This document shows positions 36,972 through 39,900 of a stretch of 64,000 bases of DNA, one piece after another. The first letter of the stretch is position 1; each line of letters begins with the position of its first letter. Position numbers: made by a program. The stretch lies in contig NC_092396.1 in NCBI RefSeq assembly GCF_030028105.1, positions 17,381,820 through 17,445,819 on the forward strand. Direction: 5' to 3'. This DNA is from Mobula birostris (Eukaryota).

Positions 36972-39900
36972 TAATTTTCTCTGACTAACACACCTGACCC
37001 CATCTCTGTCCTTGCTCACTGTCCAACAATGCAAACGCTAGCAATCACAACTAGGACTAAAGGGACAAGAGATTCTGCAGATGTTGGAAATCCAGAGTAA
37101 CACATACAAAATGCTGGAGGAACTCAGCAGGTCAGACAGAATCTATGGACCAGTCCTGATGAAGCATCTCAGCCTGAAATGTTGATTCTTTATTCCTCTC
37201 CATAGATGCTGCCTAACCTGCTGAGTTCCTCCAGCATTTTGTGTGTGGTACTAAAGGTTCAGAACCTTATTTGATTTTCAATGGGAAATGAACCTAGGCT
37301 TTTCCCCTCATAAAATGATTGTTTCCTCACATCCCAATCCTAAACATGGGGAAAGTAAGTCTGAGGAGGTAGTTTTATTGACAAGGGAGACAACCAGTTC
37401 ACACTTTTCTTGTAGCGGCAAAATATGGGGTGGGGTGGGGGAAAAGGGAATATTCTGGCGGATGAAATTTTGTATTATTTGAATGAGTGACTGAGGAGGC
37501 AAATTAATCTTGTGTGCATTAGTGCAAAGGGGATTGATTGTCAGACATCTTTTAGTACCCACTATATCTTTTATCCCCATAATTACATCTAGCTAGCCTA
37601 GATCATTGGTTATAGTGGTAAGACACAGAAAACAAAGATGGGCAAGAAGGTGAGATGTACAGTAAGGGGAGGATTCTCATTTCATTTACTTTATCCGTAG
37701 GCAAAAGTTTTGGAGCTATTTCTCGTAAGTGAGTTTACTAATGTCAGGATTGAGAAGATCCAAATTGGCAAGTATCCGTAGGATAAAAGAGAAAATAAAA
37801 ATGCAGGTACAATATTTTACGGCAATATACATTTTGCAGTATATAGAGAAGGAAGGTTGCACAAGAAAGACAATCCCCTTCATGTAGCTAGAAGACCAGA
37901 TTAAAAAAAACAGATGAATGATATGGGGACACTTCAATAGACAGTGATCTCCTAATCACATAAACTTTTAGCTTGACTTACTATTCTGAATTAATTCCAG
38001 TACGTTGCCATAACAGATCTAATGTACCATCAACAGATAGAATTTAAAAAAAACAGCACATCTGAACTAAATTGTAAACAGACTTTTTAAACAGCTAACT
38101 TTCAACCAGCAGTTTAATGTTATTGTCTGTAAACAACATAAAGATGGAAATCAATTCAATGACCATTTAAAAACTAGCTCCTAAGGATCTTATTTTCTCC
38201 TTCTCACTGTAGGAGTTTGTTTTTAAGTACCAAATGTTAGGCATCAGAAACTGTGTAAAGTCTGCTCAAAAATAATAAAAAAGAAATAATCTTAAAAAAG
38301 AATTCCAAGTTGCTTTCCCCATTCCAAATCCTTCTAGTAATGTCAGTCACACTACAAAAAAAAATGAACCCACCCATCAAATGTTTTAACACAGTTATCT
38401 ACCTTTCCAGAAAGAATATTTAGTTCTGGTTCAATTGTTATTGACTTTTTTTAATGCAGGTGGGCAAATTATATCGTTGGTACCAAAAAGGGCATTGTTT
38501 TCTCTTGATGCAACAGTAAAATCCAGGAAATATGAAAAAAAAAGGCAAACATCACTTGTGAAGAAAGATGTTATAGCATCAAATGCGTATCCTGGCTGGA
38601 AATTAAGATACTTTAATCCACCTTTACTGACTGAATATGAAAGAGTTGAAGTGTATTTACAGCATCTTTAGGTTTTATTGCACTGTTAAATGCCAGGCTA
38701 CTAGTTAAAGGTATTACTTATTTTTCCCCCTTTCTCAATTTAGAGTGTTTTAAGGCTTTGTCTATTGCACTGGGCCCCTTTTGTTTGCTTGAGACTCTTA
38801 ATAACAAAGGAGTGCAGAGGAAGGAAGATGAGAATGATGAACTAAGATTATTGCCATCCTTACTTTCTCTTGTGGATTTTCTTATTTTGTACTCAGAGGT
38901 GGTGGAGTCAGGGTGATAACCAACAGAAGGCTCAGAAGGGTAAAGGAAATGTTGTTTGTAGTTGGCATGTTTGCCCCCACCTCCCACACCACCCCACCCC
39001 CGATGCCCAAATTCCATCCCATGATAGACTAGCCAAGACTATAATTGATATAGTAGTCTTGTAGGTTCTGAAATGGAAATCATGAGGGTGTGCAGAAAGA
39101 AAGTCAAAAAAGCAGGCAATTCTTGCATGAATGGGTGGAAGTCTCCAAGCAAGTCCATCAGGATGTTTGTCTTAAAAAAAGGCTTGTTTTTTTGCCTCAT
39201 TATCATTTCAAGATTCTCTTTTCTCTTTCCCAGGTATAAAACAAATCAAGAAAAAGCTTCTGACACCTCAGTCAAGGAAATGCTTTCTGCAGCCGGTCCG
39301 GGACCGGTTTGATCGTCGAATATCACATTTGGAGTCTCGGCACCTTTGACAGACATACACCTCCGGGACATTGGACTTGCGGATTTTTGCACAGGACAGG
39401 TGGATCCAGGTACCACACTCATTACACTCTATCATTGGACGTCCAGCAAATGGCTTCATGCAGTAACACGTCACCAGATCCCAAGAATCATCATCTGTTC
39501 AGGGGAGAACTTTCAAAAGTTAATTATCTCACATCAGGTAATAACATCTTGCAAATATTCACATCAGTTTTCACAAGGTGAGGAACCCCTTGACAGTTGA
39601 TTTGGATTGTATTTGTTATTATGAAGGAGAAAACTACACATTCCTTTGTGCATAACTGTTTTCATATATAACAAAGTGACAATAACCAGGTTAACCAATG
39701 ACAGTTAAGAGATAAATATTGATGAGTATAGTGGTTAGGAATTTTTATTTTTACACCCAACTCAGAAGGCAAATGAAGCCTCAGTTTGCCATCTCAATTT
39801 AAATGTCACACTCATTAAAATGTTGCACTTTCTCAGTATTGACACTATAAATGTAAGCCCAGATCTTTTGTTCAAGTGCATGGAATGCACCTTGATCTTG

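What the first reader, a model, noticed from the sequence alone, without database searches (positions are those of the whole stretch)
37064..37249. Size series of fold-back, hammerhead-carrying Penelope derivatives down to a ~186-bp non-coding hairpin with its own TSD
Seen: four insertions share one layout of TSD, inverted terminal arm, variable interior, hammerhead core, direct arm, TSD. They are 3086-4831 (1.75 kb, with a GIY-YIG remnant), 21768-22331 (564 bp), 19816-20031 (~215 bp) and 37064-37249 (186 bp, only the arms around one ribozyme core). Each has a different 8-13 bp TSD, so they are independent insertions. Known: Penelope-like elements carry minimal hammerheads and often an inverted terminal repeat. 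Inference: the shortest forms could be a self-propagating retrozyme-like or MITE-like non-autonomous family mobilised by Penelope RT/endonuclease, rather than just heavily truncated copies. I cannot tell whether this has been described in chondrichthyans.
Basis: partly seen in the sequence, partly recalled or inferred. Interest (0 to 1): 0.72.

Follow-up and report, generated by a model that had tools for sequence, protein, structure and literature searches.

The report
Truncated fold-back Penelope retrotransposon copies
The 186-bp hairpin is a heavily shortened, decayed insertion of a Penelope-like retrotransposon in a ray genome, built the way such insertions usually are, so it is ordinary and not a new kind of mobile element.

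Summary
Four insertions (3086-4831, 21768-22331, 19816-20031, 37064-37249) each have their own 8-13 bp target-site duplication, an inverted left arm, a variable interior and a direct right arm. All derive from the 3' end of a Penelope-like element (PLE) that carries a minimal hammerhead.

Two corrections. First, the arms are not symmetrical: in 4 of 4 copies the inverted arm carries an extra 34-38 nt at its outer end. This fits the published PLE "tail". Second, only the 1.75-kb copy keeps an intact minimal hammerhead, one in each arm. The 186-bp copy keeps both core boxes but has lost helix II and the helix III palindrome.

A 5'-truncated inverted copy next to a 5'-truncated direct copy, a tail at one end and a hammerhead in the terminal repeat is the published PLE insertion architecture.

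The two short copies do not share a junction: their inverted arms are 51 and 89 nt. None of their 11 left/right differences is shared. Neither has tandem ribozymes.

They are best read as independent, strongly truncated insertions, probably primed from both nicked strands. An amplifying hairpin family is not supported. It could not be excluded, because no genome-wide census was possible.

The parts
37056..37063 (.). Copy D, left target-site duplication ACTAAAGG
   Evidence: Read. Identical to 37250-37257.
37064..37100 (-). Copy D, 37-nt tail: outer extension of the inverted arm with no partner in the right arm
   Evidence: Homologous to the outer left ends of A, B and C.
37101..37149 (-). Copy D, inverted arm (reverse complement of the PLE terminal 49 nt)
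   Evidence: 45 of 49 identical to 37199-37247.
37150..37198 (+). Copy D, direct-only interior holding the hammerhead relic 37150-37188. Box CTGATGA at 37156-37162, GAAA at 37176-37179, expected cut after 37183.
   Evidence: Both boxes are kept. Helix II is reduced to one wobble pair and positions 15.2/16.2 read TG instead of CG. It fails the strict descriptor.
37199..37249 (+). Copy D, direct arm, ending at the inner end point (no tail)
37250..37257 (.). Copy D, right target-site duplication ACTAAAGG
   Evidence: Read.
19816..20031 (+). Copy C. Tail 19816-19851, inverted arm 19852-19929, 13-nt junction 19930-19942, direct arm 19943-20022 or beyond. Duplication TTATGACAA at 19807-19815 and 20032-20040. 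A 10-bp palindrome (CAAGATCTTG) lies at the junction.
21768..22331 (+). Copy B. Tail 21768-21801, inverted arm 21802-21911, direct-only part 21912-22221 (last codons of the ORF plus 3' UTR), direct arm 22222-22331. 13-bp duplication at 21755-21767 and 22332-22344.
3086..4831 (+). Copy A. Tail 3086-3123, inverted arm 3124-3759, 30-nt duplicated filler 3757-3786, direct copy 3787-4831. Intact minimal hammerheads at 3188-3215 (-) and 4740-4767 (+). Duplication CCTTTTATCTGT at 3074-3085 and 4833-4844.
4058..4474 (+). Copy A, remnant of the C-terminal GIY-YIG endonuclease ORF, with one in-frame TGA
   Evidence: translation; 93% identical to a ray protein; relatives match Pfam GIY-YIG; the remnant itself gives no Pfam match.
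8814..9945 (+). Copy E: direct-only 5'-truncated PLE 3' end with a tail-like extension and no inverted partner found

Best explanation
The four elements are separate retrotransposition events of endonuclease-encoding Penelope-like elements in the genome of a ray. They belong to two families: A is one, and B, C, D and E are another.

In each event the GIY-YIG endonuclease cut both target strands a few bases apart, which gave the 8-13 bp duplication. Reverse transcription was then primed from both exposed 3' ends, near the 3' region of the element's RNA, at two neighbouring internal start points about 35 nt apart.

- The cDNA started at the inner point became the direct right arm.
- The cDNA started at the outer point became the inverted left arm, which therefore carries the tail.
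- Both cDNAs stopped early, at points that differ from event to event.
- They were then joined by a template switch or microhomology.

When both stop within about 50-100 nt, the result is a roughly 200-bp hairpin such as D. The hammerhead is simply carried along, because it lies 65-105 nt from the end. It has since decayed.

Shown here: the layout, the duplications, the one-sided tail, the unique junctions, the PLE identity and the state of each ribozyme.

Inferred: priming from both strands and the way the junction forms. The inference rests on analogy with the in vitro work on the Anolis Poseidon element.
For: Layout and duplications.

Tail: on the inverted arm only in 4 of 4 fold-backs, 34-38 nt long. 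Copy E carries a tail-like extension on a direct copy. The literature describes:
- a 30-40 bp tail often present at one end only, and an inverted 5'-truncated copy next to the element (PMC8557442, passages);
- a tail that equals the stretch between two adjacent internal start sites of reverse transcription, and a purified enzyme that cleaves and extends both strands (PMC11167929, main text read).

Junctions differ in all four copies. Inverted arms reach about 605, 110, 89 and 51 nt from the right end. Direct copies reach 1045, about 420, 101 and 100 nt.

A and B contain ORF remnants, so they must come from RNA of an autonomous element. Fold-back formation de novo is therefore frequent here: 4 of the 5 copies with intact ends are fold-backs.

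Left/right differences are private to each copy. None of 11 such sites is shared between C and D.

Junction detail: a 10-bp palindrome at C's junction and a 30-nt duplicated filler in A.

PLE identity:
- Strict minimal hammerhead in both arms of A, against 0.015 hits expected from shuffles.
- The bulged A after box 1 and CG at positions 15.2/16.2 match the features listed in PMC4209133.
- The GIY-YIG remnant is 93% and 87% identical to ray proteins.
- The ray proteins P0001 and P0003 match Pfam GIY-YIG below its cut-off. A more distant unnamed relative, P0008 (47% identical), passes it.
Against: - No genome-wide data: only two short copies could be compared.
- The direct arms of C and D begin within about 1-5 nt of each other. 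A shared short template RNA would also produce this.
- The published in vitro work saw no difference in start site between top and bottom strand. Here the tail is on the inverted arm in 4 of 4 copies, so a simple random choice of start site does not fully explain the regularity. By chance alone 4 of 4 on the same side has probability 1 in 8.
- The published start sites lie in an AC-rich stem-loop. Here the sense strand is GT-rich at that place, and I found no conserved stem.
- The window's own ORF remnants match no Pfam family.
- Rfam finds no hammerhead.
Confidence: 0.8

Rival explanations
1. One reading: the roughly 190-215 bp hairpins are a non-autonomous family that is itself transcribed and copied again by the Penelope enzyme (a retro-MITE or SINE-like derivative). 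Many copies would then descend from a short master.
For: - The direct arms of C and D start almost at the same base, just 5' of the ribozyme.
- C and D share two variants in the tail that A and B lack (alignment).
- Non-autonomous derivatives of PLE ends do exist: retrozymes (PMC7229834 passages) and non-autonomous Chlamys elements.
Against: - C and D differ in the inverted-arm end point (89 against 51 nt) and in loop length (13 against 49 nt).
- None of 11 left/right differences is shared.
- They differ at a diagnostic site on which the two arms of each copy agree.
- The right arm ends at the inner start point and the left arm at the outer one, so neither strand keeps sequence beyond the start sites. 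The Anolis enzyme needs template RNA extending past the start site. PLEs are said to need more-than-unit copies to move again (PMC4209133). This is an inference by analogy.
- D's ribozyme has lost helix II.
Confidence: 0.08
2. Retrozyme-like element: a unit released by hammerhead cleavage, circularised and copied by rolling circle.
For: A type I minimal hammerhead of PLE origin is present. Retrozymes are reported as PLE derivatives, including in the one chondrichthyan sampled.
Against: - Retrozymes are head-to-tail tandem repeats with a ribozyme in each unit.
- D has one unit and one ribozyme relic.
- In A, B and C the second ribozyme copy (only a partial one in C) lies on the opposite strand, so no transcript carries two cleavage sites.
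- Tandem Repeats Finder reports no array at any of the four loci.
- As RNA, D folds into a long hairpin and not a hammerhead.
Confidence: 0.02
3. A single cDNA snapped back on itself (hairpin self-priming) instead of two primings from the two strands. Or: the inverted repeats arose after insertion or in assembly.
For: Snap-back gives the same topology of inverted arm plus direct arm. There is a palindrome at C's junction. PLE structures are known to trouble assemblies.
Against: - A cDNA begun at the inner point cannot serve as template for the 34-38 nt tail that lies beyond that point on the inverted arm, as seen in 4 of 4 copies.
- Snap-back would run on into flanking DNA and would not leave a clean duplication.
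- The duplications bracket the whole structure, so it formed at insertion.
- The window has no gaps.
Confidence: 0.08
4. A DNA-transposon MITE with terminal inverted repeats.
For: Inverted arms, small size, no coding capacity, target-site duplication.
Against: - Duplication length varies: 8, 9, 12-13 and 13 bp.
- The inverted repeat does not reach the left terminus.
- Arm length varies from 49 to about 630 bp.
- The arms are the 3' end of a retroelement with an endonuclease ORF.
Confidence: 0.01

Closest known systems
Canonical endonuclease-encoding Penelope-like element insertions (Penelope/Poseidon and Neptune clades), as drawn in Craig et al. 2021, Fig. 2 (PMC8557442)
   Same: Strong 5' truncation. 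An inverted 5'-truncated copy abutting the direct copy. A 30-40 bp tail at one end only. A minimal hammerhead in the terminal repeat. A C-terminal GIY-YIG endonuclease. Target-site duplications.
   Different: Nothing in kind. These copies sit at the short extreme of truncation. The clade of this ray element was not determined. The region of the end points is GT-rich on the sense strand, whereas the Anolis element starts in an AC-rich stem-loop.
Minimal hammerheads of PLEs (Cervera and de la Pena 2014, PMC4209133)
   Same: CUGANGA box, an extra nucleotide before helix II, GAAA, palindromic 15.2/16.2 with no loop 3 (hence a dimeric ribozyme), and a short helix I. That paper reports pairs of motifs on opposite strands 100-700 bp apart.
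   Different: Only copy A keeps the full motif. B-E are decayed, mostly by CpG-type changes.
Metazoan non-LTR retrozymes (PMC7229834; bioRxiv 10.64898/2026.07.22.740005)
   Same: Non-coding, derived from PLE terminal sequence, carrying a type I hammerhead. Probably dependent on PLE enzymes.
   Different: Retrozymes are direct tandem repeats, expressed as unit-length linear and circular RNA. Here there is a single unit with inverted arms and at most one ribozyme per strand.
Twin priming of human L1
   Same: Both nicked target strands prime reverse transcription, which gives an inverted 5' part joined to a direct 3' part within one duplication.
   Different: In L1 the second priming is internal on the same RNA, so the inverted part is not a copy of the 3' end. 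Here both arms copy the same 3' terminal region, which implies two templates or re-use of the template.

Membership tests
Penelope-like element (endonuclease-encoding) | [quoted passage not shown] | tested here: met
   - The remnant 4058-4474 itself gives no Pfam family at E<=1.
- It is 93% identical to ray protein P0001 and 47% identical (E 5e-28) to P0008.
- P0008 matches Pfam GIY-YIG at 26.0 bits (cut-off 22.6). P0001 scores 20.9 bits, below the cut-off.
- The feature is therefore met by transitive homology, not directly.
Penelope-like element (endonuclease-encoding) | Telomerase-like reverse transcriptase in the same ORF | tested here: inconclusive
   - The four copies are truncated downstream of the RT.
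- The relative P0001 begins with a YIDD box upstream of the region aligned to the window (sequence printed; calling this the RT catalytic box is recalled).
- No Pfam RT match was reported for P0001 at E<=0.01.
- A separate divergent copy at 34188-33334 (-) aligns to P0001 residues 20-258 at 30-44% identity.
Penelope-like element (endonuclease-encoding) | Minimal type I hammerhead in the terminal repeat | tested here: met
   - The strict descriptor hits both arms of A. Shuffles average 0.015 hits, at most 1 in any of 200.
- Relics at the homologous place in B, C, D and E.
- Rfam models do not detect it.
Penelope-like element (endonuclease-encoding) | Frequent 5' truncation with an adjacent inverted 5'-truncated copy | tested here: met
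   4 of the 5 copies with intact ends.
Penelope-like element (endonuclease-encoding) | [quoted passage not shown] | tested here: met
   38, 34, 36 and 37 nt on the inverted arm of A, B, C and D. Absent from the direct arm in 4 of 4.
Non-LTR retrozyme | Head-to-tail tandem units, each with a hammerhead on the same strand | tested here: not met
   No tandem array at any of the four loci. D has one ribozyme relic. In A-C the second copy is on the opposite strand.
Non-LTR retrozyme | Unit-length linear and circular RNA | not testable with these tools
   No RNA data available.
MITE | Terminal inverted repeats reaching both termini, and a duplication of fixed length | tested here: not met
   The left terminus carries 34-38 unmatched nt. 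Duplications are 8, 9, 12-13 and 13 bp.
   Only n = 2 short copies are in the window. Inverted arms reach 89 and 51 nt, loops are 13 and 49 nt. None of 11 arm differences is shared. Genome-wide the feature is untested.

The most novel reading that the evidence does not exclude
The short hairpins are not random debris. Junctions cluster at the ribozyme: 5 of the 8 end points in the four copies lie within about 20 nt of the 48-nt hammerhead. This could mean either of two things.

(a) A short RNA starting just 5' of the ribozyme is a preferred template and founds an amplifying hairpin family.

(b) Two element RNAs held together by the dimeric hammerhead are copied at once from the two nicked strands, and the two cDNAs meet and switch at the dimer. 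That would give the dimeric PLE ribozyme a role in integration.

The evidence does not exclude either. The other fragments in the window start at scattered positions of the profile (7, 37, 60, 63, 81).
Probability: 0.07. Interest if true: 0.55.

Novelty: new member of a known kind. Interest (0 to 1): 0.15.

Why it matters
Little is new. The window gives a clean natural example of the published PLE insertion architecture in a batoid genome, with four events side by side and exact duplications. The tail lies on the inverted arm in 4 of 4 events. That regularity fits the in vitro finding that a PLE enzyme cleaves and extends both strands from two neighbouring start sites. A genome-wide tabulation of such fold-backs could test whether the two strands use different start sites, which the in vitro work did not see. 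For annotation, hairpins of this sort should be masked as Penelope fragments and not called MITEs or microRNA precursors. D attracts sub-threshold microRNA-model matches.

Tried and rejected
- Rfam, gathering score, whole window: 0 matches.
- Rfam at E<=10 on A: 2 unrelated weak lncRNA matches and no hammerhead.
- Rfam at E<=10 on D: 17 sub-threshold matches, mostly generic microRNA-precursor hairpins, and no hammerhead. The Rfam models evidently do not cover loop-less minimal hammerheads.
- Pfam on four ORF remnants of A and E: 0 families.
- Consensus fold of the tail region of five copies: -1.3 kcal/mol, 5 pairs. No support for a conserved stem-loop.
- Search for tail-like sequence next to the old fragments and upstream of E, to see whether they too are fold-backs. 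No score exceeded the best of 300 shuffles. The best was 11 against a shuffle maximum of 14, at 44300-44314.
- Literature on a twin-priming explanation for PLEs: 1 paper, unrelated.
- Literature on fold-back or hairpin PLE derivatives: the query was too loose, and none of the 15 papers listed held the term Penelope-like.
- Literature on Penelope in elasmobranchs: 4 papers, judged from titles and abstract starts in the listing only. None is about such derivatives.
- Literature on Penelope, chondrichthyans and retrozymes: 30 papers, 15 listed. The relevant one is the 2026 preprint.
- I therefore found no description of short fold-back PLE hairpins as a family in cartilaginous fish.
- Not used: genome contigs, which holds bacteria and archaea only. 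Structure and complex prediction were not used, as no claim needs them.
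Full report
WHAT IS THERE

The window has no gaps.

Copy D is 37064-37249 (186 bp).
- It lies between two copies of ACTAAAGG, at 37056-37063 and 37250-37257.
- It consists of a 37-nt outer segment (37064-37100), an inverted arm (37101-37149), a direct-only interior (37150-37198) and a direct arm (37199-37249).
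- The arms are identical at 45 of 49 positions.
- As RNA it folds into one long hairpin: -90.8 kcal/mol, z = -10.55, 0 of 200 shuffles as good.

Copy C (19816-20031) is flanked by TTATGACAA. Its arms of about 80 nt match in 65 of 80 columns, and its loop is only 13 nt.

Copy B (21768-22331) is flanked by a 13-bp duplication, 12 of 13 identical. Its arms are 110 bp and 84.5% identical.

Copy A (3086-4831) is flanked by CCTTTTATCTGT. Its arms are 3124-3759 and 4227-4831, 87.9% identical over 644 columns with 31 mismatches.

An exact direct repeat of 8-13 bp at both borders of each element is far beyond chance, and the four repeats differ. These are four separate insertions, and each fold-back formed at insertion.

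HOW MANY COPIES THE WINDOW HOLDS

A profile built from the nine aligned arms (A1) finds 14 places:
- the eight arms of A-D;
- one direct-only copy, E (9813-9955), whose body extends back to about 8814;
- five old fragments: 27724-27806 (-), 31865-31937 (-), 44329-44371, 44394-44461 and 62023-62066.

So 4 of the 5 copies with recognisable intact ends are fold-backs.

WHAT FAMILY IT IS

The interior of A reads as the end of an ORF with one in-frame stop.
- Read with X at the stop, it is 93% identical to a gene model of Mobula hypostoma and 87% identical to one of Hypanus sabinus. All but 2 of the 13 hits are from these two rays.
- The remnant itself matches no Pfam family.
- Its relatives match Pfam GIY-YIG at the aligned place. 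P0008 scores 26.0 bits, above the cut-off of 22.6. P0001 scores 20.9 and P0003 scores 20.1, both below it.
- P0001 starts with a YIDD box upstream (printed; reading this as the RT catalytic box is from memory).
- The structural features below complete the case for an endonuclease-encoding Penelope-like element (PLE).
- In a 50-nt stretch shared by all arms, A is a separate family (30-37 of 49 identical to the others). B, C, D and E form one family (36-46 of 49 between copies).

THE RIBOZYME

Rfam does not see a hammerhead at any threshold tried.

I wrote a strict minimal-hammerhead descriptor requiring:
- the CUGANGA box, with an optional bulged base after it;
- helix II of at least 3 pairs;
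- GAAA;
- a palindromic spacer of 0-6 nt;
- U followed by a base other than G;
- helix I of at least 3 pairs.

It hits exactly two places in the window, the two arms of A: 4740-4767 (+) and 3188-3215 (-). Shuffled sequence gives 0.015 hits on average and at most 1 in any of 200 shuffles.

The motif has the bulged A after box 1 and CG at positions 15.2/16.2 with no loop 3. Cervera and de la Pena list these traits for PLE minimal hammerheads that must act as dimers (PMC4209133, text read).

The column-by-column table shows the other copies are relics:
- B has GAAA changed to AAAA in one arm and box 1 changed in the other.
- C has TTGATGA and AAAA in the direct arm, and lacks box 1 in the inverted arm.
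- D and E keep both boxes but read TG at 15.2/16.2, so the palindrome needed for the dimer is lost. In D, helix II is reduced to a single wobble pair.

"Hammerhead-carrying" is therefore right as ancestry. It is not right as present function for the 186-bp copy.

In all four fold-backs the inverted arm runs 38, 34, 36 and 37 nt further outward than the direct arm. The duplication abuts that extension. Copy E carries a similar extension on a direct copy.

This fits the PLE tail:
[quoted passage not shown] They also describe an inverted 5'-truncated copy often found next to the element, and frequent 5' truncation (PMC8557442, passages and Fig. 2 legend).
- Frangieh et al. showed for the Anolis Poseidon element that reverse transcription starts at two adjacent internal sites on the RNA. 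The tail is the stretch between them, and the purified protein cleaves and extends both DNA strands (PMC11167929, main text).
- Cervera and de la Pena had already seen pairs of minimal hammerheads on opposite strands 100-700 bp apart. They put most scattered motifs down to truncated PLEs.

IS THERE AN AMPLIFYING SHORT FAMILY?

The end points, measured from the right end, are:
- inverted arms: about 605, 110, 89 and 51 nt for A, B, C and D;
- direct copies: 1045, about 420, 101 and 100 nt.

No two copies share a junction pair.

In the alignment printed, C's arms differ from each other at 7 sites (8 columns) and D's at 4. None of these 11 differences is shared in the same direction. The one shared site is discordant in the opposite direction. 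At a diagnostic site (G or A in the CTG-N-CC context), the two arms of C agree with each other and differ from the two arms of D.

This is what is expected if each hairpin was made from a linear template at insertion and then decayed. It is not what descent from a common hairpin master would give.

A and B contain ORF sequence, so they certainly arose de novo from RNA of an autonomous element. Fold-back formation is therefore the common outcome here, and no special family is needed to explain two short ones in 64 kb.

By analogy with the Anolis enzyme, which needs template RNA extending beyond the start sites, a solitary copy that ends at a start site should not be a competent template. PLEs are also said to need more-than-unit copies to move again. 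This step is inference.

Against my reading:
- The direct arms of C and D begin within about 1-5 nt of each other, at the 5' edge of the ribozyme.
- C and D share two tail variants.
- With n = 2 I cannot weigh these points.

MECHANISM

The model I commit to has four steps:
1. Staggered cuts on both strands give the duplication.
2. Both 3' ends prime cDNA on the 3' region of element RNA, one from the inner and one from the outer start point.
3. Both cDNAs abort early.
4. They are joined by a template switch.

C's junction lies in a 10-bp palindrome. A's junction has a 30-nt duplicated filler, 3757-3786 being identical to 4199-4228. Both fit such a switch.

A snap-back of a single cDNA gives the same topology, but it cannot supply a tail beyond its own starting point.

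One thing remains unexplained. The published assay saw no strand difference in start site, yet the tail is on the inverted arm in 4 of 4 copies here.

COMPARISON AND NOVELTY

- It works like, and is, a set of truncated PLE insertions.
- It is not a retrozyme. Retrozymes are direct tandem units with a ribozyme per unit and unit-length circular RNA. No tandem array is present at these loci.
- It is not a MITE. The duplication length varies and the left terminus is unmatched.
- That PLE ends can found non-autonomous ribozyme elements is already in print.

I rate it a new member of a known kind, with low interest.

LEFT OPEN

- No eukaryotic genome collection, Repbase or Dfam was available, so copy number and junction spectra genome-wide are unchecked.
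- The clade of the element (Poseidon or Neptune) was not determined.

Noticed in passing
33334-34188 (-) and 31865-31937 (-): A second, divergent PLE copy. tblastn of ray protein P0001 (residues 20-258) aligns at 30-44% identity. About 1.4 kb downstream on the same strand lies a decayed terminal arm with a hammerhead relic.
   Followed up: partly
8814-9945 (+), array 9643-9798: Copy E is a direct-only truncated PLE 3' end. Its 3' UTR holds a 24-bp minisatellite of 6.5 units, 93% matching. It also has a tail-like extension with a short deletion.
   Followed up: partly
44300-44461: Two direct partial copies of the PLE terminal 45-70 nt lie 22 nt apart. They are preceded by a 15-nt match to the start of the tail that is not above shuffles. 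It may be a very short, old tandem or fold-back insertion.
   Followed up: partly
19930-19943 and 37150-37156: The direct arms of the two short copies start within about 1-5 nt of each other, right at the 5' edge of the hammerhead. With two cases this is unexplained.
   Followed up: partly
proteins P0003, P0005, P0010, P0013: Ray gene models named after host genes (DIPK1C, mucin-2, CHID1 and ABHD14A isoforms) carry stretches 71-83% identical to the PLE endonuclease remnant. These are probably PLE fragments absorbed into predicted isoforms.
   Followed up: no
37093-37256: The D hairpin draws sub-threshold matches to many microRNA-precursor models (for example 33.7 bits against a gathering score of 100). 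This is a generic long-hairpin effect and a possible source of false microRNA calls.
   Followed up: no
36926-36969; 54295-54369; 55012-55086: A (GA)n(GT)16 microsatellite lies about 95 bp upstream of D. Two two-unit tandem repeats of 37 and 36 bp lie elsewhere.
   Followed up: no
27724-27806 (-): An old PLE terminal fragment. Its end forms a small perfect palindrome (7-bp arms with a 2-nt loop) right after the GT-rich stretch. It may be a minimal fold-back.
   Followed up: no
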